A stretch of 64,000 nt of DNA, from contig CM000153.2 in NCBI GenBank assembly GCA_000004695.1, positions 4,000,001-4,064,000 of the forward strand, in the 5' to 3' direction. The position numbers and the translations under genes are program-made. Below the pieces are notes generated by a model, which saw only the letters and a program-made list of their open reading frames with translations, did no database searches and was not told the DNA's origin. Positions 2,794 to 36,020 of the stretch are shown here, piece by piece. This DNA comes from Dictyostelium discoideum (lineage: Eukaryota). Within the stretch, counting starts at the first letter, position 1. The number at the start of each line of letters is the position of its first letter.

Positions 2794-3197
2794 CTAAAAA
2801 AGGTAAATAATTAAATAATTTTCAAATTATTTCTATATCAATATAAAAAAAATTAAATTGAAATTAAAATTGGGTATAAACAAAATGTTTAATATATTTT
2901 ATTTAAATTAAATTTTTAAAAAATAGTTACCACATTTCCAATTCGATTTTACTTTTCATAAAAAAAAAAAAAAAAAACATATAAAAACATAATAACACAC
3001 TTAATCAAGTTCAAAATAAAATATTTTACCAATTATTAAACCACACACCACACTTTCAATGTTTCAATAATTTGGAATATCTATTTTAATAAATTTAATT
3101 TCTTTCATATCAATAATTCTTTCTCAATATTTTATTATTTATCACCCACTTCTTTCGGAAATAGAAATTGTTGTTTGAGTAACCTTAATTTTAAAAT

Positions 3198-3427: not shown

Positions 3428-4991
3428 ATGAGATTATTTTTATTATTAGTAACACTTTTCAGTGTTACAACTCAAATATATGCAGAATTTTCAGAAGATC
3501 AAATGACAAATATTGTATCTGCATTCAATAAACTTAGATCAACAGTTACACCAAGAAATTTAGGAGATTATAATCAAGTTTCATGGAGTGATATTCTATA
3601 TGCAAATGCATTAACTCAAACCCAAACTTGTCAACGTAATTCACTTTATTCACCAGCCGGTTCAGCAGGTTTATATGGTGAATCTTATGCATATTTCGAT
3701 AAAGATCCATCTGTAAATGATGTAAGTATCTAATTTTTAATAATATTAATTATATTTAAATTTTAAAATATTAATTATTTTTTTTTTTTTTTTTTTTTGA
3801 AAATTCTGGAAATTATTAATAAACAGGTTCAAGATAAACTATCCGCTGGAAGATTATATTATAATTATGATGATACCCAATGTACTGGAAATCATGATTG
3901 TACTCCATATTTAAATATTATTTGGAACACAACGTAAATATTTTATTTACTTTAAAATAATTTTTTTTTTTTTTTTAAAACATTTTATATTAATAATTTT
4001 TTTTTTTTTTTTTTAATTAAAAGTACACAAGTAGGATGTTCAAAAAGTGAATGTGATGGTAAAACATTAGTAGTTTGTAATTATAATCCACCAGGTAGTT
4101 TTTCAGGTATTCCACCATACACTGCAAGACAACATGCTGATTTAACAACAATGAGTTATGAAGAATGGCCAAATAAAATTGTGAATTTAAATCAAAGATT
4201 AGTTAGAAGAGATGACGATCATATTTACACTGCAAGTGTCCCAACTGATGGATCATTCGATTGGAGAGATAATGGTGTTGTTGGTTTCCCAAAGGATTCT
4301 TCGAATTGTGCCTCTGGTTGGGCTTTCACTGCTGCTGGTATTTTTGAATCAAGAAGTGCTATGAGAACTAGACATAGATATGATTATTCCGCTCAACAAC
4401 TTATAGATTGTATTAATGTTTGTATTATTATTGTTATTATTTTTATTATTTTTATTATTATAATTTACCAAACTAACAAAAATTTTATTTTAGTTCTCAA
4501 ATTTTTCAATTGGAAATTATACAAAATGTAGTAGATTCAGTGGTGAATTAAATAAAGCATTAATGTATGCCCAAGCATATGGTCTCCAAGCTACTAGTAC
4601 CTATCCATATGTTGGTGCTTCATCAATAGGTTGTTCATATAATCAATCATCAATTGCTGTTGAAGGTGGTGATGTTGAATATTCACAAGTTGGTAGAGAT
4701 TCAATCGTTGAAAAATGTAGAAAACAAGGTCCAGTTGGTGTTGGTATTTATGTTACCAATGAATTCTTATATTATGCTGGTGGTATTTTCGAATGTAACA
4801 ATACATTGATCGATAATGCAAACATTAATCACAATGTATTATTGGTTGGTTATAATGAAAAAGATAATTACTATATCATTAAAAATAATTTTGGTCGTAC
4901 TTGGGGTGAAAATGGTTTTGCTCGTATTACTGCCGATGTTAACAAAGATTGTTTAATAGCTAAAAATCCAGCTTATTCCATCCAAATTTAA
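3428..4991 (+). CDS. Secreted fusion protein: N-terminal CAP (CRISP/Antigen5/PR-1) domain plus C-terminal papain-like (C1 family) domain. The nucleophile Cys and oxyanion Gln are replaced, so it is a predicted pseudopeptidase.
   Basis: Four exons: 3428..3721 (donor GTAAGT), 3827..3933 (acceptor AACAG, donor GTAAAT, phase 2), 4024..4417 (donor GTTTGT), 4494..4991 (acceptor TTTTAG, stop TAA). Signal peptide MRLFLLLVTLFSVTTQIYA. CAP motifs: ...CTPYLNIIWNTTTQVGCSKSECDGKTLVVCNYNPPG (compare PR-1 GHYTQVVW...GC...C...CNYxPPGN). Papain-like motifs: SFDWRDNGVVGFPKDSSNCASGWAFTAAG (canonical QGxCGSCWAFS), NHNVLLVGYN (His present), YYIIKNNFGRTWGENGFARI (Asn present). The CAP C-terminus and the peptidase N-terminus lie in one uninterrupted exon (4024..4417). 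Confidence 0.7.

Positions 4992-5006: not shown

Positions 5007-5101
<95 letters not shown>
5006..5101. repeat. (AAT)n microsatellite, ~32 units, intergenic
   Basis: Perfect aat repeats read directly from the sequence, followed by long poly-A tracts (5160..5230). Confidence 0.95.
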
Positions 5102-5102
<1 letters not shown>

Positions 5103-5185
5103 TTAATTAAAACTAGAAAAATAAGAAATTAATTGAACAATTTTTTTTACCACGGTAAAAAAACAGAAAGAAAAAAAACAAAAAG

Positions 5186-5235
<50 letters not shown>

Positions 5236-5482: not shown

Positions 5483-6839
<1,357 letters not shown>

Positions 6840-7480: not shown

Positions 7481-9238
7481 TTACTCAGTTGTACTTAAAT
7501 GAACTTTTTGAGCTCTACCTGATGGATCTTGTGAGGCACCCCAAGTTGGAATCCAACGTTGAACGGTTTCCATACATTCTTTACCTGGATAGATGGCTTC
7601 AAACATTTTTCTGTAGAGGAAAGCTTCTTTGGTGGTTGGAGTATCATCTGGGAAGTAAGATTCACGTTTAGCAAACTCTTCATCGGAAACTTCATTCTCG
7701 GCATTTTCCTTTAAGCCATCAATCCAACTATAACCGACACCATCAGAGAATTGTTCTTTTTGTCTCCAAAGGACAGATGATGGAAGGTATGGTTTTTCGC
7801 CTTCTTTAGTTTCAAAAGCTTTTCTGAGGATATATTTCTCCATTCTCTTTTTACCTTGATCATCATGACAAACTTTGTGAGATGGGTCAATGTTCATGGC
7901 GACATCAAGGAAACGTTGATCAAGGAATGGTACACGAACTTCAACACCCCAAGCAGCGGTGGATTTATTAGCACGAAGACAATCAAAACTGTGGAGAGCT
8001 TTGATACGACGACAACATTCAACATGGAATTCATTGGCATCTGGAGCATTGTGGAAATAGAGGTAACCACCAAAGATTTCATCAGAACCTTCACCGGATA
8101 AAACCATTTTAACACCCATAGCTTTAATTTTTCTAGAGAGGAAATACATTGGAGTGGAAGCTCTAATGGTGGTGACATCATAGGTTTCCAAATGTTTAAT
8201 AACGTCTGGTAATGCATCAATACCTTCTTGAACTGTGAAATGATATTCATGATGAACTGTTTGAAGGTAATCGGCAACATCACGTGCAGCTTTAAGATCT
8301 GGGGCATCCTTTAAACCAATACAGAATGAATGAATTCTTGGCCACCATGCTCTTGATTTTTCATGATCTTCAACTCTTTGTTCTGCATGTCTACTAACGA
8401 TACTTGCAACCAATGATGAATCTAAACCACCTGATAATAAGACACCATATGGTACATCACTCATCATACGTGATACAACTGCTTGTTCAAATGCTTCTTT
8501 AATTGCTGGTAATACTTGTTCTTCACTCTTTAAAACTCCACTTGGTGAATCACCCATAATCCAGTTTGGTTTATAATATCTTACAAACTCTTTAGTTTTA
8601 CTTGAAAAATAGTGACCTGGTGGGAATGGTTGGAATTTATAACAATCATCTTTAATTGCTTTCATTTCTGATGAAAACCAAATTGAACCATCTTTATGCC
8701 ATCCAATATATAATGGTACTAAAAAAATAAAAAAATATATATTATTAATAATTTAATTGATTAATTGACTAATTGATTGATTGATTTGTTTTATTTACTT
8801 ACCAACACCAATTGGATCACGAGCAGCTAAAAATGAATTTGCTTTTTTGTTATAGACAACAAATGCAAAATCACCATCTAACATATGAACGAAATCATCA
8901 CCTTTATCTTCATAGAGATGTAAAATTGGTTCACAATCACTATGGGTTTTAAAGGTATGTTTACCAGTGGCAACCAAGTCTTCTCTTAATTTCTCGTGGT
9001 TATAAATTTCACCATTTACAGTGAGGGCAATAGTTTCATCTTCATTCAATAATGGTTGAGCACCGTTCTCTAAACCGACAATAGCTAAACGTTCATGGGT
9101 GAGAATTGAATCGGATGATTGATAAATACCGTTCCAATCTGGACCTCTATGTCTTAATCTTGATGATAATGAAAGAGCCTTCTTTCTTAATTTGCTAGCT
9201 TCCTCTAATGAGTTTAAAATTGCTAAAATACCACACAT
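7481..9238 (-). CDS. asns: Asparagine synthetase (glutamine-hydrolysing), class II amidotransferase
   Basis: Exon 1 is 8803..9238, starting MCGILAIL (N-terminal Cys nucleophile), donor GTAAGT at 8802, phase 1. Exon 2 is 7481..8718 (acceptor TTTTTAG at 8719-20, stop included). Motifs: [27 protein letters not shown] (PP-loop), [10 protein letters not shown], colinear with plant/animal AsnS. Confidence 0.9.
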
Positions 9239-10232: not shown

Positions 10233-11861
10233 TTAAATTATTAAAACTGATAAAATAGAAATTAAAATAATAGTAAATAAATTGAAAATTAATTTTGAAG
10301 TATTATTATCATTATCAGCTGGTTCTTTTCTGGCACGAACAGTGATTTTATCAACATAAACTGTTGGTTGATCTTCATTAGCTTTTAACCAAAATCCATC
10401 GAAAACTTCATCAGAGTCATCAAAAGGAACAATAATTTTAGTCCAAGTATTAGCAGCAATTGGTTTGCCATTGAGTTGTTCGACCGAATAGGTTTGTTTC
10501 ACTTCATTGGTGTGATCAGGTTTCTTATGTAATATTTGAAGATTGAGATCTTGGCTACCCATTTCACCACCATGGATCCAAAATTCCAATTGTTTGTGTA
10601 CATTTGTTTGAATACAGCCATAGCACATGAAATGTAAAGATTTCTCTTTGATGGGATTAAATTTAATCGAAAATTTTCCTTCACATGGAATTACCTCGGA
10701 GGAGTTTATAACGGGTTTTGAAGTGCTCCAATCATCGGCCCAATGGGTAATCTTATCATTGTAGATATCAAAGGTATCAGAGAATTGAAGTGGTCTACCA
10801 TTGTTTTTTGCCAATCTTTCTAAATGATTTTTATAACCTTGACCAAATGTAGTTGGATCACCTTCATAATTTTCAATGAGTGATGGGACATTACAATCAC
10901 CGACCAACCAAGACCAAGCCAAATAATGAACACCATTGTCGTCACAATATTGGAGGAAATCTTTAAGGAAATCATGTTGACAATCCTTTTGACCAGTTTC
11001 AGTAGCGATCATTGGAATTTGATCAAAAATTGGTTTAATTTCAATATCCCAACAACCTTTGGATTTACATTGATTGAATTCGTAAGCATGTAAAGAAGCG
11101 GCAATTTGTTGTGGTGATAGAGTATCTCTTGGCATGTAATCAAAGAATTTCAAAAATGAAGAAGCATATTGAATTCCACTCATCAATATGATATTGGTCG
11201 CACCAGTTGATCTAACAGCCTCGAGGAGTTGTTGCATTCCGACTGTACCGTAATCTTGATTGGTGCATTGTGTACCATCTTTCCAACATTGCCATGCATC
11301 GTCATCATTGTATGCATTGTCGTTTGGGTATGGTTCATTGTAGAGATCAAAGATAACACGTGAATTATCTTTAAAATCTCTAGCAACACTCTTCCAAAAA
11401 TCTACACTACTAATATTGTTTGGCATTGGAATTTGTGCTTTTGCTTGTAATCCATTCTTTGAACTCCAATGAAGATCCAAAATTACTGCCAAATTATGAT
11501 CACAAAGCATCTCTACATATGATTTTATTGTATCTCTATATCCATTGCCATACCATAATGCCTCATTTCCATGATTACCCAACCAACAATCTTCATTCAA
11601 TGGTACACGAATTGCATTCAATTTCCAGCTTCTAAGTAATTCAATATGTTCTGAATCACATGGTCCATCGAAAACTTGTGCATTTTGAACACACATATAT
11701 TCTGTACCAGGACGATTTACTCCTCTAAGCATTATTATTTCATCATCAGAGTTATATATTGTATTTCCTTTTATATGTAATCCATGGGTTGTTTGTTCTC
11801 TTGAATATATATTTTTAATTAAAAAACATATAAAAAATATTAAACTAAATTTTATTTTCAT
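10233..11861 (-). CDS. Glycoside hydrolase family 5 (cellulase/endoglucanase-like) with signal peptide, C-terminal beta-sandwich (CBM-like) region and hydrophobic tail (possible GPI signal)
   Basis: Single 542-codon ORF. N-terminal signal MKIKFSLIFFICFLIKNIYS. GH5 hallmarks: LRGVNRPG, ILDLHW, FDLYNEP (acid/base Glu), IATETG (nucleophile Glu), WSW. C-terminal ~170 aa extra domain, then the ...NDNNTSKLIFNLFTIILISILSVLII tail. Confidence 0.8.
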   Translation of the reverse strand: MKIKFSLIFFICFLIKNIYSREQTTHGLHIKGNTIYNSDDEIIMLRGVNRPGTEYMCVQNAQVFDGPCDSEHIELLRSWKLNAIRVPLNEDCWLGNHGNEALWYGNGYRDTIKSYVEMLCDHNLAVILDLHWSSKNGLQAKAQIPMPNNISSVDFWKSVARDFKDNSRVIFDLYNEPYPNDNAYNDDDAWQCWKDGTQCTNQDYGTVGMQQLLEAVRSTGATNIILMSGIQYASSFLKFFDYMPRDTLSPQQIAASLHAYEFNQCKSKGCWDIEIKPIFDQIPMIATETGQKDCQHDFLKDFLQYCDDNGVHYLAWSWLVGDCNVPSLIENYEGDPTTFGQGYKNHLERLAKNNGRPLQFSDTFDIYNDKITHWADDWSTSKPVINSSEVIPCEGKFSIKFNPIKEKSLHFMCYGCIQTNVHKQLEFWIHGGEMGSQDLNLQILHKKPDHTNEVKQTYSVEQLNGKPIAANTWTKIIVPFDDSDEVFDGFWLKANEDQPTVYVDKITVRARKEPADNDNNTSKLIFNLFTIILISILSVLII

Positions 11862-23179: not shown

Positions 23180-24796
23180 ATGAGTGGAACCAATAGTTGG
23201 TTAAACAATAATAACAATAATAGTAATACAACATTAACAAATACAAATACTATTGGAGGTACAAATTTTGGTATAAATCAATTTGATGGTGATGATTGGG
23301 ATAATATTTTTGATGGTAATAATGGTGATGGTGATGGTGATTTAGATGGTGATAGTTATAAAAGTTATCAAAATCCATACTCTTATCGTGATTGTATAAT
23401 ATTTTTAATAGATGCATCAAAAGCAATGTTTGAACCAAATGAAAATAATGAAATCCCATTTCATAATGCAGTAAAATGTTTAATTCAAACAATTACTGAT
23501 AAAATTATTACAAGTGATAGTGATTTAATTGGTGTTTGTTTTTATAATACAGTAAGTAAATCTATATATATATATATATATATATAAATATTTAAAATTA
23601 AACAAATTATTAATCATTAATATTTATTTTAAAGAATAAAAAAAAAAATATAAATGATTTTGAAAATATATATGTATTATCAGATTTAGATATACCAGAT
23701 CCAAAGATAATATTAACATTAGAAGAAATGTTAGAGAATTCAAATTTCACTACGAATGGATTGGGTAATTGTCAAGGTGAAATGCCATTTTGTGATGCAT
23801 TATGGACATGTTCAACCATGTTTAGTAATATCAAACAATCTGGATCATCATCAGGTGAGAATTCAAATAATAATAATTTCAAAAGAATTTTCTTATTCAC
23901 AAATGAAGACAATCCGAATGCATACAATGATAGTATTAGAAATTCATCGATTCAACGTTCAAAAGATTTATCAGATTTAAATATTCAAATTGAATTATTC
24001 TCAATGAATAAATCTGTGAATGATAAATTCGATTTCTCTTTATTCTATCAACATATTCTAATATTTGCAGATGAAGAGAATTATTTAGATCCAACTCAAT
24101 TTGATGCAAGTTCCAAATTCTCTGATTTAAGATTTAAATTAAAAAGAAAAGAATTTAAAAAAAGATCATTAGGTAAATTACCATTATATATTGGTAATTT
24201 AAATAATAATAATAATAATAGCAATAGTTTAGATAGTCAAGTTATTATATCAACTCAACTTTATAATTTATTTTCACATGCTCATAAATCATCACCAACA
24301 TTATTAGATCCAAAAACAAATTTACCAGTTAAACAATTGATAAAGAATGTTTGTGCAAACACTCAAGCTACTTTATTACCATCACAAATTAAACTTTGTT
24401 ATCATTATGGTGGTGAACCTGTTATATTTACCAAAGATGAGATGCAAACAATTAAATCTATCGATAGAATTGGTTTCACTTTGTTAGGTTTTAAACCATT
24501 GGAAAACATTAAACCCTATCATTCAATCAAACATTCACAATTCATTTTCCCTGATGATCAATCAATTAAAGGTTCGGTTTTAGCATTCAATGCTTTGGTT
24601 GAACAAATGTTAAAATCTGGTAAAGCTGCAATTTGTCGTTTCACTCCACGTTCATCTTCTTCACCTCGTATGGTTGCTTTAATACCACAAGAAGAGATTT
24701 TACAATCTGAATCTGAATTTAATAATCAACAATTATTAAATTCATTATCATCACAACAACAACAACAACAATCTTCTCAACAATCTTCTTCTTCCC

Positions 24797-24858
<62 letters not shown>

Positions 24859-25992
24859 CTTCCTTCTTCATCTCAACAATCAAATAATAATAGGAAAATT
24901 CAAATTAGACCAAGAGGTATGCATGTTATTTATTTACCATTTGCAGATGATATTAGATATCCAAATAATATTGGTGTTAAAAGTGATGGATTAGAGATTA
25001 AACAAGAAAATATTGATAAAGCAAAGAATATTATTAAAATGATGAAAATTAAATTTGATGAAAAGAAATTTGTAAATCCTGGACTTCAAAAACATTATGC
25101 TTCTTTACAAGCTATTGCATTGGAAAGAGATAAAGTTGAAGAAACTGTTGATAATATTCAACCAGATAGAAAATTAATTGAAAAGGTTATTGATACCACT
25201 CAAGATTTTAGTGATGGTATATTCCCAGTTGGTTATGCTTCGACTGTTTCCTCGGCAACTTCTTCTACCTCATCCTCTTCTGCAAAACGTTTAAGAGACG
25301 GTAAAGATTTATCTACAATGGATTGGCCTGATATGGTAAAGAGTGGTGAAATCATTAAATTGACAGTAGACGATTTAAAATCATTTTTATCAAATCAAAA
25401 TATTAAACCAAGTTCAAAAGCAAAAAAAGCAGATTTAATAGATTTAATCTCAAATTTAATTTCTGGTGGTAATTTTAAACCAGATAAATTACATCTTTTG
25501 AAAAAGGATTCACCTCCTTTATCTGATAATACAATAACAACAAATGGTGGTGATGACGATGATAATAATAGACCATCTAAAAAAGTTAAATCAACTTCAA
25601 CCTCAACTACTGCCTCCAAAAATACCTCTTCTTCTTCTCCACCTCTTGTTTCTGCTGCAACAATGAATAAAAAAGCTCCTCCAAAGAAAAGTTTTTCAGT
25701 AAAAGATAAAAATAGTAGTAATAATAGTAGTGGTGGTAGTAGTAAAGCAAATGTTAATGACGAATTTGATATCGATTTTAAAAATAGTGATCAAGATGAT
25801 GATACAGATAACGAATCCGATGTAAATAATAAAGCCACCACTTCAACCACTACAATAACTACTACAACAGCAGCCCCAAAGAAAAACAACTTTGTCAATA
25901 ATGGTATGTTTGATACTAGGGAATTATGTAAATATGGTAAAAACTGCTATCGTACAAATAAACAACATCTTGATGAATATAGACATCAATAA
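23180..25992 (+). CDS. ku70: Ku70 (XRCC6) homolog of the NHEJ pathway, with vWA, Ku core, SAP domain and a C-terminal PBZ (PAR-binding) zinc finger; contains a poly-Gln insertion
   Basis: Exon 1 is 23180..23551 (donor GTAAGT). Exon 2 is 23635..25992 (acceptor TTTAAAG, phase 0). Colinear with human Ku70: DCIIFLIDASKAMFEP / NIYVLSDLDIP / RIFLFTNEDNP / ICRFTPRSSSSPRMVALIPQEE / MHVIYLPFADDIR. SAP: LKSFLSNQNIKPSSKAKKADLIDLISNLI. PBZ-like C-x2-C...H-x?-H: CKYGKNCYRTNKQHLDEYRHQ. (CAA)n polyQ at 24798..24858. Confidence 0.9.
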
Positions 25993-28899: not shown

Positions 28900-28902
<3 letters not shown>

Positions 28903-30282
28903 ATAAGTAGTTTTTTAAAAAAGTCAGAAAAAGAATATACAGAAGAAGAGATTAAAATTGAATCAAGGTTATTACATAAGAATGTAAAGGAAGGAAATGT
29001 TAAACAAGTGAAGAAACTTTTAGGTAAAAAGGGTAAATTAATTATAAATACCGTCGATGATTTGGATCAATCATCATTGATGATAGCAGCAAGAAACAAT
29101 AATTTGGAAATGTTTGAATTGGTATTATCACATTATAAAATTTGTAAGGTAGATATAAATATACCAGACAAGAATGGGTATACATGTTTACATCATTTCC
29201 TCTCGATGACCGATATTGATATACGTATGATTTACATTCTATTGGAATGTGAAGATATTCATGTCAATGTGAACAATCGTGATTTGAATACACCATTTCA
29301 TTATTTCTGTCAAAAGTTTCGTGCACAAAATAATGGTCAATTAAAGGAGGTTTTCGATATACTCATTAAAAAAGGTGTGAATGTCAATGCCATCAATAAG
29401 AATGGTGAATCACCACTCCACAAAGCAATTTTCAATACTACAGTGGCTCAAGGTATGATTACATTACTCTTGGAGAATAAATCCAATGTGAATATAGTCA
29501 ATAAGAATGGTGAGTCACCACTTCACTATTGCGTTAGAATGGGTCGTGCCGATTTGGTTTCCATACTTCTTCAATATGGCGCCGATCGTAGTGCCGTCGC
29601 CAAAGATAATAAACCACTCTATCAAATTGCAATCGATGAAAACTTTACAAAGTTAGCCGATCTTCTTAGAGAGGGTGGTGATATGTCAAAGATTTCCGAT
29701 GGTGCCTCCACTGAACTTTTATCTCTTCTTCAAAATCCAACACTTCGTGAAGACTTTAGGAAGTTTTTAAGAGAAGAATTAATCTGTGAAGAGAATATAA
29801 ACTTTTATACTGACGTTGAAGCTTACAAATACTTAAAGGTTGATTACAATAGATTACTCAAAGAATTCTATAGAATATATGAAAAATACATTATCGATGA
29901 TTCACCTTGTGAAATTAATGTTCCCTACTCTATAAAGTATAATATTTTAAATTTTAAGAAAACACTACCTTCCGTTGAATTATTAAGTGGTGGTAGTAGT
30001 ATGAGTCTAGATAAAATTCATTCAAGTCAAAGTAATAATAGTATTTGTAGTAGCAATAGTAATGAAAACATTTGTAATAGTAATAATAATAGTAGTTTAA
30101 GTATTGGTAATGGTAATAATAGTGGAAGTACTTTTAGTAGTAATAATAGTTTAGGTAGTGGTATAAGTAGTGCCAATTCTTCTTTTTGTTTACCAAATAA
30201 TTCACCCTCTCCTTCTTCTATGACTGTAACTGTAACTGATACTGATAATTTAAATAATAATAATACCAATAATAACAATAAT

Positions 30283-30364
<82 letters not shown>

Positions 30365-30537
30365 GTCAACAATCATCACCCTCTTCATCAACTCCATCTT
30401 CACCAATTATTTCTGGTAATAATTTGGATGTTGAAAAACTTCAATCAATTTTTAATATTGCTCAACATCACATTTTTAATTTAATGGCAAGTGATTCTCT
30501 TGCAAAATATAAAAAAAAATCATTTTTAAATAAATAA
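28900..30537 (+). CDS. Ankyrin-repeat and RGS-domain protein; the RGS domain is interrupted by a ~160-aa Ser/Asn low-complexity insertion
   Basis: Single 545-codon ORF. ANK repeats: NGYTCLHHFL, NTPFHYFCQ, NGESPLHKAI, NGESPLHYCVRMGRADLVSILLQYGAD. RGS N-terminal helices DFRKFLREELICEENINFYTDVEAYKYL...KEFYRIYEKYIIDDSPCEINV, then poly-N from (AAT)n at 30280..30362, then RGS C-terminal helices LQSIFNIAQHHIFNLMASDSLAKYKKKSF. Confidence 0.75.
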
Positions 30538-34364: not shown

Positions 34365-36020
34365 TTAATATTTAAAAATTTGACCATACCAAGAGTTTAT
34401 AATTACATAGAGACCAGTTGTTCTCATTTGTTCAGAAGAACGATAATAGGTAGTATTGGAAAGTAAATCAGTGACAGGGATAGTTTCATTACCATTCATT
34501 GGTTCAGCATCATCCAAGATAATATTACCAGTACCTTGTTGGTCAGAGAAATTCAAAACACATAATCTACGTTCATTTTGGTATGTCCATTTGTAGGCAA
34601 CTAAATTCCAACTCTCTTGATCATTTGTGCAATTTAAATAAGTGAATTCACCATTCTTAAAGACTGGATCACTAACGATGGAGGTTAAAGTTTGATAGAA
34701 TGCCATTGCATCATCGATAGCTGGTTCAGATTGTTCACGTCTAAGATGGACGTCCAATTGGTTGGAATAACCTTGGAAATCACCCCACCAAAAGAAACGT
34801 AAACCAGGGAGTGTATAGGTGATGAGAGCGGCAGCATCAGATCTCCACCAACTACCAAAGAAATTTGCACCTCTTGGTTCATCATGATTTGAAATGAAGT
34901 GAGCAGAATGAGTTGTAAATTGTTTTGAATGACCAGAGATCCAAGCTCTGACAGCATTCATATCGCCACCATTTATGATATCATGTAACATTTTATCGTA
35001 GGTATAGTCGAAACCGACTTGTTGTAAATTCTCTTCGTATGGATGGTAAACTTCGGCCAAAAAGATAATATCTGGATACTCTTGTTTGACCATATCGATA
35101 GCAACAGTCCAAAATTCCTCAGTTGGTTGTTGGAAGCCCCATGATTGTAATTGATTTTCCCAATTTGAACCAAATAATGAATTCAATAATAGGTAAGCCA
35201 TATCACATCTAATTGCATCGGCGAATGAAGCTACGGTTAAAAGTTGTTGAATTCTTGCTTTGACACAATTTGAATTCCAATAGTTCAATTGAGCAGTATC
35301 ATACCATGAGCCACCCCAACCTGCACTACCATAGGCAATACCATTTGGAAGGTAAGTATTATTATCATATGGTGTTGGTGTACCTTGTGGTGCACGAATA
35401 TAATAGTCCATCTCTGTTGTGGTCCATTCTGCATCGACTGCAGTATGATTTGGTACAAAATCTAACATTAACAATAATCCAATGGCATTTAATTTCTTTC
35501 TTAATTCAATTAAATCTTGTTCTAACCCAATTTGTGGATTAACTGAATAGTTTGTAACTGCATATGGTGATCCAATAATATCGGCTTGTGTATATCCTGG
35601 TAAAACTTGTTCATAATGTTGTAATAATGGTCCGTTGGTTTGATCATAGTTTAATCCATATTCTCCTAATTCCCAAACTCCCATCATCCAAATCATATCA
35701 AATCCCATTGATTTAATTTTTTCAAATTCTTCAAATGGAATATCTTTTTTTTGAAAAAAAAATAAAAAAATTTATTAATATTTCTTTTTTAATAAAATGA
35801 ATAATTAAAAAAACTATATAAAATATATTTAATATATGTACATACCTGAAAGTGTATTAATTGGTGTATTATAAGTTATTGATAAATTATACATCCATGG
35901 TCTTGTTGAAACTTCATACATCATCATACCACCTGCTGGCACTGTTGATGATACTTTCTTTGTTACTAAACTTGTCATTGCAACGAGTGCAAAAATAAAA
36001 ATAATAAAATTAATTTTCAT
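34365..36020 (-). CDS. Secreted alpha-amylase (glycoside hydrolase family 13)
   Basis: Exon 1 is 35846..36020 (signal peptide MKINFIIFIFALVAMTSLV..., donor GTATGT, phase 1). Exon 2 is 34365..35743 (acceptor AAAAAG). GH13 motifs: GFDMIWMMGVWE, LLLMLDFVPNHTA (region I DxxxNH), RCDMAY (region II nucleophile Asp), FLAEVYH (region III Glu), FISNHDEPR (region IV). Confidence 0.8.

What the first reader, a model, noticed from the sequence alone, without database searches (positions are those of the whole stretch)
3428..4991. One gene fuses a CAP/PR-1 domain to a papain-like domain that has lost its catalytic Cys and oxyanion Gln
A single uninterrupted exon (4024..4417) links the C-terminal CAP signature (VCNYNPPG) to the N-terminus of a C1-peptidase fold (SFDWRDNG...). 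In the peptidase active-site motif, canonical QGxCGSCWAF reads SSNCASGWAF. Gln19 is replaced by Ser and Cys25 by Gly, while His (NHNV) and Asn (KNNFG) are retained. This predicts a secreted, catalytically dead pseudoprotease carrying a sterol/lipid-binding CAP module. I do not recognise CAP plus C1 as a described domain combination. Dead C1 domains elsewhere (TINAG, SERA, silicatein-like) act as binding or scaffold proteins.
Basis: partly seen in the sequence, partly recalled or inferred. Interest (0 to 1): 0.62.

Follow-up and report, generated by a model that had tools for sequence, protein, structure and literature searches.

The report
Prespore CAP-fused dead papain-like protein
This Dictyostelium gene (DDB_G0286055) encodes a secreted protein joining a CAP/PR-1 domain to a papain-like domain that has lost its catalytic cysteine; it is a conserved inactive paralogue within an already catalogued slime-mould CAP–protease family that includes gmsA, so it is a tidy but not a new kind of thing.

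Summary
Four exons (3428-3721, 3827-3933, 4024-4417, 4494-4991) give a 430-aa protein, not 451. It has a signal peptide, a CAP domain (Pfam E 2e-12), a 44-aa linker and a Peptidase_C1 domain (E 1e-41). Against papain, Gln19 is Ser226 and Cys25 is Gly232, while His378 and Asn396 are kept.

The gene is D. discoideum DDB_G0286055 (UniProt Q54MB6). The same fusion, lacking the Cys, occurs in nine other sampled dictyostelid species or isolates. The CAP-to-C1 junction lies inside one exon in all eight loci mapped. dN/dS is 0.12-0.26 in both domains.

Dictyostelids have at least three CAP:C1A lineages. The other two, including gmsA (DDB_G0286015), keep an intact QGxCGSCW site. A 2023 paper already notes CAP:C1A proteins in slime moulds. 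The sterol-binding idea is untested, and three of the four CAP cavity residues are gone.

Published data show the promoter is the 15th strongest SpaA ChIP-seq peak and the mRNA is about 40-fold prespore-enriched, like spore-coat genes.

Best reading: a secreted, non-catalytic binding protein of the prespore or spore-coat secretory programme. The ligand is unknown. It is a new member of a known kind, of modest interest.

The parts
2994..3175 (+). Conserved promoter block. It contains the CA-rich elements AACCACACACCACAC and TTTCAATGTTTCAATAATTTGGAATAT (3038-3082), and TATCACCCAC...GAAATTGTTG (3140-3174).
   Evidence: The core elements are largely identical in D. discoideum, D. citrinum, D. dimigraforme and D. 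firmibasis, within an otherwise poorly alignable, strongly A/T-rich spacer. The published SpaA ChIP-seq summit lies 364 bp upstream of the ATG, which is window ~3064 (PMC5923282 supplement).
3428..3721 (+). Exon 1. It encodes the start codon, the signal peptide (aa 1-19, window 3428-3484, MRLFLLLVTLFSVTTQIYA|EF) and the N-terminal part of the CAP domain.
   Evidence: Mean Kyte-Doolittle hydropathy of residues 3-14 is 2.57. The phase-0 intron after aa ~98 is conserved in all eight species mapped.
3722..3826 (+). Intron 1 (GTAAGT...AG, 105 nt, 8.6% GC)
3827..3933 (+). Exon 2, the middle of the CAP domain
3934..4023 (+). Intron 2 (GTAAAT...AG, 90 nt, 4.4% GC)
4024..4417 (+). Exon 3. One open frame carries the CAP C-terminus (to PY166, window 4120), the 44-aa linker (aa 167-210, window 4121-4252) and the start of the C1 domain (from window 4253).
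   Evidence: The equivalent junction lies inside a single exon in all eight species mapped.
4295..4327 (+). Degenerate active-site motif D225-S-S-N-C-A-S-G-W-A-F235. S226 (4298-4300) replaces the oxyanion Gln19. G232 (4316-4318) replaces the nucleophile Cys25.
   Evidence: Alignment to papain, HMMER alignments to PDB cathepsins, and orthologue alignments
4418..4493 (+). Intron 3 (GTTTGT...AG, 76 nt). It is present only in the five Dictyostelium (group 4) species mapped.
   Evidence: The GTTTGT donor is shared by D. discoideum, D. citrinum, D. dimigraforme and D. firmibasis, while D. purpureum has GTAAAT at the same exon boundary. The alternative +15 donor used in XP_637918 is absent from D. 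citrinum, D. dimigraforme and D. firmibasis.
4494..4991 (+). Exon 4, the rest of the C1 domain and the stop codon (4989-4991). It contains the retained His378 (4830-4832) and Asn396 (4884-4886), with F398 at the Trp177 position.

Best explanation
The locus is one gene, D. discoideum DDB_G0286055 on chromosome 4. It encodes a 430-aa secretory-pathway protein with a signal peptide, a PR-1-like CAP domain, a 44-residue linker and a papain-fold domain with no nucleophile.

It is the catalytically dead lineage of the dictyostelid CAP:C1A family. The other lineages, gmsA/DDB_G0286015 and DDB_G0276111, keep a complete catalytic site.

Shown here:
- The fused architecture and the loss of Gln19 and Cys25 are present in every orthologue sampled.
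- The cysteines matching papain's three disulfides are retained, and there is no I29 prodomain.
- Both domains and the linker are under purifying selection.
- The substrate-cleft residues are changed relative to the active paralogues but conserved within the dead clade.

Taken from the literature: the promoter is one of the strongest in vivo binding sites of the sporulation transcription factor SpaA, and the mRNA is about 40-fold enriched in prespore cells, like spore-coat and prespore-vesicle genes.

Inferred:
- The protein is made in prespore cells, folded and N-glycosylated in the ER, and exported with the spore-coat and matrix cargo.
- It acts without catalysis, as a binding or scaffolding protein. 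Its re-specified papain cleft, and perhaps the CAP domain, hold a protein or peptide ligand.
- A plausible sub-version is that it competes with or regulates the active CAP:C1A paralogues or other cysteine proteases.

The ligand and the exact role are unknown.
For: Single gene:
- The ORF is continuous across the CAP-C1 junction in one exon in D. discoideum, D. purpureum, D. firmibasis, D. dimigraforme, D. citrinum, P. violaceum, T. lacteum and C. fasciculata.
- Only the N-terminus has a signal peptide. The stretch after the internal Met177 is hydrophilic, with mean hydropathy -1.03.
- The gene sits next to the same PfkB gene in seven species.

Domains and dead site:
- Pfam and papain alignments support both domains and the substitutions.
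- Foldseek gives TM 0.86-0.89 to cathepsins L, S and K.
- All 15 clade sequences have S at the Gln19 position and G or A at the Cys25 position. All 24 other CAP-C1 proteins keep Q and C.

Selection and age:
- dN/dS is 0.12-0.26 for CAP, 0.21-0.32 for the linker and 0.12-0.20 for C1.
- The dead clade is monophyletic with 100% bootstrap and spans several dictyostelid genera.

Cleft: it is re-specified but conserved. P68 becomes L/I, V133 becomes G/A, A160 becomes N and S205 becomes N.

Identity: the protein is an exact match to KAM9942211.1. It is identical to AX4 XP_637918/Q54MB6 apart from one splice-donor choice.

Expression context:
- The SpaA ChIP-seq peak ranks 15th, with its summit at -364, among pspE, dcsA, pspB, psvA, cotB, cotC, wacA, aqpA and cotA (PMC5923282).
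- Prespore enrichment is log2FC 5.33, against 5.45 for cotA, 5.52 for psvA and 4.65 for cotC.
- A conserved promoter block lies under that summit.
Against: - No direct protein-level evidence was available. I had no proteomics, localisation data or knockout phenotype, so the spore-coat or prespore-vesicle destination and the binding role are inferences from co-regulation and sequence.
- The relative orientation of the two domains is not reliably predicted. The AF2 model has pTM 0.61, and pLDDT is below 50 in residues 106-130 and 158-177.
- The NJ tree of C1 domains does not resolve the dead clade as sister to the active CAP-C1 clades. A common origin of the fusion is therefore likely but not proven.
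- Retention of His378 and Asn396 leaves a formal possibility of some non-canonical chemistry.
Confidence: 0.6

Rival explanations
1. These are two adjacent genes wrongly merged: a CAP gene ending near 4150 and a separate protease-like gene starting at ATG 4151.
For: An in-frame ATG exists at 4151 (Met177).
Against: - There is no stop codon anywhere in exon 3.
- The junction is a single exon in eight species with different intron layouts.
- The linker has dN/dS of 0.21-0.32.
- A product starting at Met177 would lack a signal peptide, although the domain keeps the cysteines for three disulfides.
- Independent annotations of the sampled genomes all call the fusion.
Confidence: 0.02
2. It is a decaying pseudogene or relic: a former CAP-protease that lost its active site and now drifts.
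For: The catalytic Cys and Gln are lost, the CAP cavity histidines are lost, and the GCNGG loop is remodelled.
Against: - The reading frame is intact in all orthologues sampled, and the clade spans several dictyostelid genera.
- dN/dS is about 0.12-0.26.
- The disulfide cysteines, His and Asn are invariant.
- Transcription is strong, cell-type specific and SpaA-bound.
Confidence: 0.03
3. It is still a hydrolase that uses a different nucleophile or a different chemistry, as silicatein does with Ser at position 25, or it has moonlighting catalysis through His378/Asn396.
For: His159, Asn175 and Trp181 equivalents are invariant across the clade. Silicatein is among the close structural matches.
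Against: Position 25 is Gly or Ala, which offers no side-chain nucleophile. The oxyanion Gln is Ser in all members. G23 becomes A/S, and the substrate-backbone-binding Gly65-Gly66 loop is rebuilt with an insertion carrying three N-glycosylation sequons.
Confidence: 0.05
4. It is a sterol- or lipid-binding CAP protein in which the dead protease domain is only a passive carrier.
For: The CAP fold is recognised by Pfam, and its closest solved relatives are plant PR-1 and VAL4. CAP proteins such as Pry1 bind sterols; that point rests on established knowledge and is cited in PMC10084794.
Against: - The C1 domain evolves no faster than the CAP domain, with dN/dS of 0.12-0.20 against 0.12-0.26. Its cleft residues are clade-conserved. 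Neither fits a passive carrier.
- Three of the four CAP cavity residues are lost.
- Sterol binding cannot be tested with these tools.
Confidence: 0.15

Closest known systems
[quoted passage not shown]
   Same: The architecture is the same: signal peptide, then CAP (PF00188), then a linker, then Peptidase_C1 (PF00112), with no I29 prodomain. All occur in the same organisms. gmsA is listed with the same longest-contig length (5,576,411 bp) as the contig carrying the window protein, which suggests, but does not prove, the same chromosome.
   Different: gmsA and DDB_G0276111 keep QGxCG(S/G)C(W/Y), His and Asn, so they look catalytically competent. They have Pro/Thr-rich or otherwise unrelated, low-complexity linkers and keep the first CAP His (HNxWR). 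The window gene has S...G at the catalytic positions, a non-PT linker and FNKLR. They form separate clades: 100% bootstrap for the dead clade and 96% for the active clades. gmsA is reported as gamete- and mating-type-specific (PMC4910948), whereas this gene is prespore-specific.
Aphanomyces euteiches modular C1A:CAP papain-like proteases (PMC10084794)
   Same: They are secreted proteins combining a C1A domain with a CAP domain through a disordered linker. That paper also notes the reverse CAP:C1A order in slime moulds.
   Different: The domain order is opposite, with C1A at the N-terminus. They are catalytically active, having been recovered by activity-based probes. They come from an oomycete plant pathogen and probably arose by an independent fusion.
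Non-peptidase homologues of papain-family proteases (TINAG/TINAGL1, Plasmodium SERA5, sponge silicatein, insect cathepsin-L-like pseudoenzymes)
   Same: They share a papain fold that has lost the Cys25 nucleophile while keeping His, Asn and the disulfides, and they are extracellular binding or scaffolding proteins. This rests on established knowledge; silicatein appears among the structural matches. A beetle cathepsin-L-like copy with C25G turned up in this search (P0008).
   Different: Those proteins mostly have Cys replaced by Ser and keep Gln19. Here Cys becomes Gly/Ala and Gln becomes Ser. There is no I29 prodomain, and the N-terminal partner is a CAP domain. There is no orthology to any of them.
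Plant PR-1 / CAP superfamily (PDB 9lyt, 1cfe; SmVAL4 4p27)
   Same: These are the best solved-structure matches to residues 19-170 (E 3e-12 to 3e-10). The CAP domain ends with the canonical CNYxPPGxxxGxxPY tail.
   Different: The first His (HNxxR becomes FNKLR), the second Glu and the CAP1 His (HYTQ becomes PYLN) are lost. The domain is fused to a C1 domain rather than standing alone.

Membership tests
Peptidase family C1A (papain-like), as a homologous fold family | Significant match to Peptidase_C1 (PF00112) over the full domain, and a papain fold | tested here: met
   143.5 bits against a cut-off of 20.7, covering profile positions 4-219 of 220. Foldseek gives TM 0.86-0.89 to cathepsins L, S and K.
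Peptidase family C1A, as an active peptidase | Catalytic Cys25 nucleophile | tested here: not met
   Gly232 aligns with papain Cys25. All clade members have G or A here.
Peptidase family C1A, as an active peptidase | Oxyanion-hole Gln19 | tested here: not met
   Ser226 occupies this position, and Ser is invariant in the clade.
Peptidase family C1A, as an active peptidase | His159 and Asn175 | tested here: met
   His378 and Asn396 are invariant.
Peptidase family C1A | Three conserved disulfides (22-63, 56-95, 153-200) | tested here: met
   C229, C263, C277, C312, C366 and C418 align to the papain cysteines. The disulfide bonds themselves were not observed.
Peptidase family C1A (cathepsin-L-like zymogens) | N-terminal I29 inhibitor prodomain (ERFNIN/GNFD) | tested here: not met
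   There is no PF08246 hit. Profile-profile comparison of the clade's linker against I29 prodomains gives E 0.6 and probability 0.1%. Only a weak pairwise resemblance exists, LTTMSYEEW against FTDMTFEEF.
CAP superfamily (PF00188) | Significant match to the CAP profile across the domain | tested here: met
   48.2 bits against a cut-off of 21.1, covering profile positions 2-117 of 117. PDB PR-1 matches at E 2.8e-12.
CAP superfamily | CAP cavity tetrad (His, Glu, Glu, His) | tested here: not met
   Only Glu85 (YGES) is kept. The HNxxR His is Phe33, the second Glu aligns to Ala/Gly, and the CAP1 His is Pro125 (alignment to PR-1; clade alignment).
CAP superfamily | Sterol or lipid binding | not testable with these tools
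   Requires binding assays.
Dictyostelid CAP:C1A family (gmsA family) | Signal peptide, then CAP, then linker, then C1, in that order, without a prodomain | tested here: met
   In total 39 CAP-C1 proteins were recovered, and all those that carry a species name are dictyostelid.
Dictyostelid CAP:C1A family (gmsA family) | Orthology to gmsA itself | tested here: not met
   It falls in a separate clade with 100% bootstrap, while gmsA groups with the active clades. Identity to gmsA is 24%.
Prespore / spore-coat gene battery (SpaA regulon) | SpaA bound at the promoter and prespore-enriched mRNA | tested here: met
   This rests on published data, not my own experiment. The ChIP peak ranks 15th, was confirmed by ChIP-qPCR, and prespore log2FC is 5.33 (PMC5923282).
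Prespore / spore-coat gene battery | Protein present in prespore vesicles or the spore coat | not testable with these tools
   No proteomic or localisation data were found in the searchable library.

The most novel reading that the evidence does not exclude
The dead CAP:C1A protein is an ancient, neofunctionalised pseudoprotease of the sporulation programme. Its re-specified cleft binds a defined protein or peptide partner in the prespore vesicle or spore coat. In that role it antagonises or chaperones the active CAP:C1A paralogues or other spore cysteine proteases. That would make it a protease-derived regulator of spore-coat assembly or germination, found across the dictyostelids sampled.
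Probability: 0.12. Interest if true: 0.5.

Novelty: new member of a known kind. Interest (0 to 1): 0.3.

Why it matters
The gene gives a clean natural experiment within one organism. The same CAP:C1A chassis exists in active forms (gmsA, DDB_G0276111) and in a form that has stayed dead across several dictyostelid genera, and Dictyostelium genetics is tractable. Because the dead copy is among the most strongly SpaA-bound, prespore-specific genes, it is a concrete and untested candidate component of spore-coat or prespore-vesicle biology.

It does not open a new class of system. Papain-family pseudoenzymes are well known, and the domain combination is already catalogued.

The practical outcomes are three:
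- A corrected gene model: 430 aa with the donor at 4417/4418, not the 435-aa RefSeq form.
- A family context for an 'uncharacterised' gene.
- A link between gmsA and a wider CAP-protease family.

Tried and rejected
1. Propeptide remnant. Pairwise HMMER alignments to procathepsins L and K extend back to residue ~174 (LTTMSYEEW against FTDMTFEEF). That suggested the linker is a vestige of the I29 prodomain. Profile-profile comparison of the clade's linker against I29 prodomains was not significant (E 0.6), and the motif is not conserved in P. violaceum, T. lacteum or C. fasciculata. I dropped the idea.

2. Common origin of the fusion. An NJ tree of C1 domains recovers the dead clade (100%) and the active CAP-C1 clades (96%), but it does not join them with support. 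CAP-domain similarity favours a common origin. This remains unresolved.

3. Locating gmsA relative to the window. The exact-sequence look-up for P0220 failed.

4. Paralogues in the window. tblastn of the protein against the window found none.

5. AlphaFold database fold search. The library was unavailable, so I used the PDB Foldseek search instead.

6. Interdomain geometry. The AF2 model is not confident enough (pTM 0.61, linker pLDDT below 50), so I made no claim that the linker occupies the cleft.

7. Literature. Searches for Q54MB6 and for Dictyostelium pseudoproteases found nothing relevant.

8. dN/dS against D. purpureum. The values are high (0.37-0.80), but I set them aside because synonymous sites are probably saturated and strongly AT-biased.
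Full report
**1. What is in the sequence**

The region is strongly A/T-rich and typical of Dictyostelium. Exons have 29-35% GC, and the three short GT..AG introns have 4-10% GC. Splicing 3428-3721, 3827-3933, 4024-4417 and 4494-4991 gives a 1293-nt CDS and a 430-aa protein.

The protein starts with a hydrophobic signal peptide, MRLFLLLVTLFSVTTQIYA|EF. Mean hydropathy of residues 3-14 is 2.57. Pfam finds CAP (PF00188) at residues 31-154 with E 2.3e-12. It finds Peptidase_C1 (PF00112) at residues 211-427 with E 1.3e-41.

Exon 3 is a single open frame that runs from the CAP C-terminus (VVCNYNPPGSFSGIPPY166), through a 44-residue linker, into the C1 N-terminus (SFDWRD). The protein has 13 cysteines and six N-glycosylation sequons. 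Three sequons lie in an insertion next to the cleft, at N265, N268 and N273.

**2. The catalytic site**

BLASTP against mature papain aligns the sites as follows.

| Papain residue | Window protein |
|---|---|
| Gln19 | Ser226 |
| Cys25 | Gly232 |
| His159 | His378 |
| Asn175 | Asn396 |
| Trp177 | Phe398 |

HMMER alignments to solved cathepsins agree. The top PDB hit, 2o6x, reads NCGSGWAF at the same place, and this shared string probably helps it rank first. From my own knowledge, it is an engineered Cys-to-Gly procathepsin L1.

The six cysteines that form papain's three disulfides are present. An AlphaFold2 model (mean pLDDT 74.9) has a C1 domain that superposes on cathepsins L, S and K and on silicatein at TM 0.86-0.89.

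**3. Identity**

The protein is an exact match to D. discoideum KAM9942211.1. It is identical to the AX4 reference protein DDB_G0286055 / XP_637918 / UniProt Q54MB6, apart from a 5-residue insertion (VCIII). That insertion comes from a donor 15 nt further downstream.

The GTTTGT donor at 4418 is shared by D. discoideum, D. citrinum, D. dimigraforme and D. firmibasis. D. purpureum has GTAAAT at the same exon boundary. The +15 donor is absent from D. citrinum, D. dimigraforme and D. firmibasis, so the 430-aa model is preferable.

A published ChIP summit at chr4:4,003,063 is annotated as -364 from this gene's ATG. That places the window at about chr4:4,000,000-4,063,999.

**4. One gene, conserved**

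Orthologues with the same CAP-C1 fusion were found in these species:
- D. citrinum
- D. dimigraforme
- D. firmibasis
- D. purpureum
- Polysphondylium violaceum
- Tieghemostelium lacteum
- Cavenderia fasciculata (DFA_01006)
- D. cf. discoideum isolates
- one EukProt dictyostelid-like sequence

I rebuilt the exon structure at eight loci with a spliced-alignment script. In every one, the CAP-to-C1 junction lies inside a single exon. In P. violaceum residues 136-432 are one exon, and in T. lacteum residues 103-412 are one exon. The phase-0 intron after residue ~98 is shared by all eight.

The gene is followed by the same PfkB (adenosine kinase-like) gene in seven species. Nei-Gojobori dN/dS against the three closest species is shown below.

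| Region | dN/dS |
|---|---|
| CAP domain | 0.12-0.26 |
| Linker | 0.21-0.32 |
| C1 domain | 0.12-0.20 |

A product starting at the internal Met177 would have no signal peptide. These results exclude both the 'two genes' reading and the 'decaying pseudogene' reading.

**5. The family it belongs to**

An exhaustive HMM search and two word-indexed searches recovered 39 proteins with the CAP-then-C1 order. Those that carry a species name are all dictyostelid, including Synstelium, Heterostelium and Acytostelium. The rest are unnamed EukProt, transcriptome and metagenome sequences.

D. discoideum has at least three:
- DDB_G0286055 (this gene)
- DDB_G0276111
- DDB_G0286015, which UniRef names 'Gamete and mating-type specific protein A' (gmsA)

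Pfam confirms CAP at 31-157 and C1 at 243-444 in gmsA. Every protein outside the DDB_G0286055 clade keeps Q..C(G)(S/G)C(W/Y), His and Asn. All 15 sequences inside the clade have S at the Gln position and G or A at the Cys position.

An NJ tree of C1 domains gives 100% bootstrap for the dead clade and 96% for the active CAP-C1 clades. It does not resolve how the two are related.

The CAP domains of the active dictyostelid proteins are the best non-orthologous single-domain matches to this CAP domain, at 38-58 bits. This favours, but does not prove, a single fusion event.

The active lineages have unrelated linkers that are Pro/Thr-rich in most of them, and they keep the first CAP histidine (HNxWR). 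The dead lineage has a different linker and FNKLR.

**6. Prior description**

- Both Pfam domains are precomputed for these proteins in public collections.
- gmsA is a named gene studied by knockout (PMC4910948).
- PMC10084794 describes active C1A:CAP modular proteases in Aphanomyces. It states that only amoebozoan slime moulds (Planoprotostelium, D. purpureum, P. pallidum) carry the reverse CAP:C1A order.

I found no paper in the searchable library that describes the dead lineage as such.

**7. The CAP domain**

Its closest solved relatives are plant PR-1 proteins and SmVAL4. The CAP2 motif and the canonical C-terminal tail are intact.

Alignment to PR-1 shows that three of the four cavity residues are lost: His becomes Phe33, the second Glu is lost, and His becomes Pro125. 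Only Glu85 remains. The 'sterol/lipid-binding module' label is therefore an untested assumption.

**8. The cleft**

I mapped papain subsite residues across six diverse members of the dead clade and 15 active CAP-C1 proteins. The dead clade shows systematic, clade-conserved replacements.

| Papain site | Dead clade |
|---|---|
| G23 | A/S |
| P68 | L/I (6/6) |
| V133 | G/A |
| A160 | N (5/6) |
| S205 | N (6/6) |
| H159, N175, W181 | invariant |

The Gly65-Gly66 loop is rebuilt with an insertion. This pattern looks like a re-specified groove kept by selection rather than random decay. It gives modest support to a ligand-binding role.

**9. Biological context from the literature**

In PMC5923282, DDB_G0286055 was one of five promoters named in the ChIP-qPCR validation of SpaA targets, together with psvA, cotC, pspE and sigF.

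In the ChIP-seq table its peak ranks 15th of all protein-coding peaks. The neighbouring entries are pspE, dcsA, gnt11, pspB, psvA, cotB, galE, pgtB, cotC, wacA, aqpA and cotA.

Its prespore enrichment is log2FC 5.33, in the same range as cotA (5.45), psvA (5.52) and cotC (4.65). The ChIP summit corresponds to window ~3064. It falls within a promoter block (window ~2994-3175) with CA-rich elements that are largely identical in four Dictyostelium species.

**10. Mechanism: shown and inferred**

Shown:
- It is a single secreted-type ORF.
- The papain fold has no nucleophile and no oxyanion Gln.
- The disulfide cysteines are retained.
- There is no prodomain.
- It is under purifying selection and is conserved across several dictyostelid genera.
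- Transcription is prespore-specific and SpaA-bound (from the literature).

Inferred:
- The protein travels with the prespore-vesicle and spore-coat cargo.
- It acts as a non-catalytic binding or scaffold protein.
- It may compete with or regulate active CAP:C1A paralogues or other cysteine proteases.

The ligand is unknown. I put about 0.95 on the structural statement and about 0.5 on the functional one.

**11. Verdict**

The 'dead secreted pseudoprotease fused to CAP' part stands. The claimed novelty of the domain combination and the lipid-binding label do not.

It is a new (undescribed) member of two known kinds: papain-family pseudoenzymes and the slime-mould CAP:C1A family. Interest is modest at 0.3. 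Its value lies in a corrected gene model, a family context that links it to gmsA, and a specific, testable candidate for spore-coat biology.

Noticed in passing
window 2994-3175 (core 3038-3082 and 3140-3174): A promoter block whose CA-rich core elements (AACCACACACCACAC; TATCACCCAC) and an adjacent TTTCAATGTTTCAATAATTTGGAATAT box are largely identical in four Dictyostelium species. The published SpaA ChIP-seq summit (-364) falls inside it. It is a candidate SpaA/prespore cis-element.
   Followed up: partly
window 4418-4432: The AX4 RefSeq/UniProt model (XP_637918/Q54MB6, 435 aa) uses a donor 15 nt downstream, which adds 'VCIII'. That GT is absent in D. citrinum, D. dimigraforme and D. firmibasis, while GTTTGT at 4418 is conserved in them. 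The reference model is probably wrong by one splice donor.
   Followed up: yes
window 5007-5102: A perfect (AAT)32 microsatellite begins 16 nt after the stop codon. It is followed by a 76-nt A-rich tract (86% A; 5157-5232).
   Followed up: no
window 5559-6839 (+): A PfkB-family (adenosine kinase-like) gene lies immediately downstream. This adjacency is conserved in D. purpureum, D. firmibasis, D. dimigraforme, D. citrinum, P. violaceum and T. lacteum, but not in C. fasciculata.
   Followed up: partly
window 23728-25992 (+): A large ORF with Ku70/80 N-terminal, beta-barrel and C-terminal arm domains, plus a HeH/LEM motif and a C-terminal PBZ zinc finger. It is a Ku subunit carrying a poly(ADP-ribose)-binding module.
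   Followed up: no
window 10233-11861 (-), 7481-8665 (-), 28900-30537 (+), 34365-35708 (-): Other neighbours by Pfam are a GH5 cellulase, an asparagine synthase, an ankyrin-repeat + RGS protein and an alpha-amylase-family protein. No tRNA genes were found in the window.
   Followed up: no
protein P0008 (Diorhabda sublineata, 632 aa): A beetle protein made of two tandem procathepsin-L units. The first unit also has Cys25 replaced by Gly (QGTCTSGWAF), while the second is intact (QGICGSCWAF). This is an independent case of the same substitution.
   Followed up: no
proteins P0009 and P0076 (T. lacteum KYQ90541.1): CAP-CAP-C1 variants with two CAP domains and an intact active site exist in dictyostelids. 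P0067 is a 2254-aa metagenomic protein with ten CAP-like repeats.
   Followed up: no
window 4066-4120 (residues 152-166): The CAP domain ends with CNYNPPGSFSGIPPY. This matches the plant PR-1 C-terminal 'CNYx.PxGNxxxxxPY' (CAPE-precursor) pattern except for N to S. C152, P165 and Y166 are invariant and P156, G158 and G162 nearly so across all dictyostelid CAP-C1 proteins aligned. From my own knowledge, plant PR-1 is cut at this motif by a papain-like protease. Whether that is relevant here is unknown.
   Followed up: no
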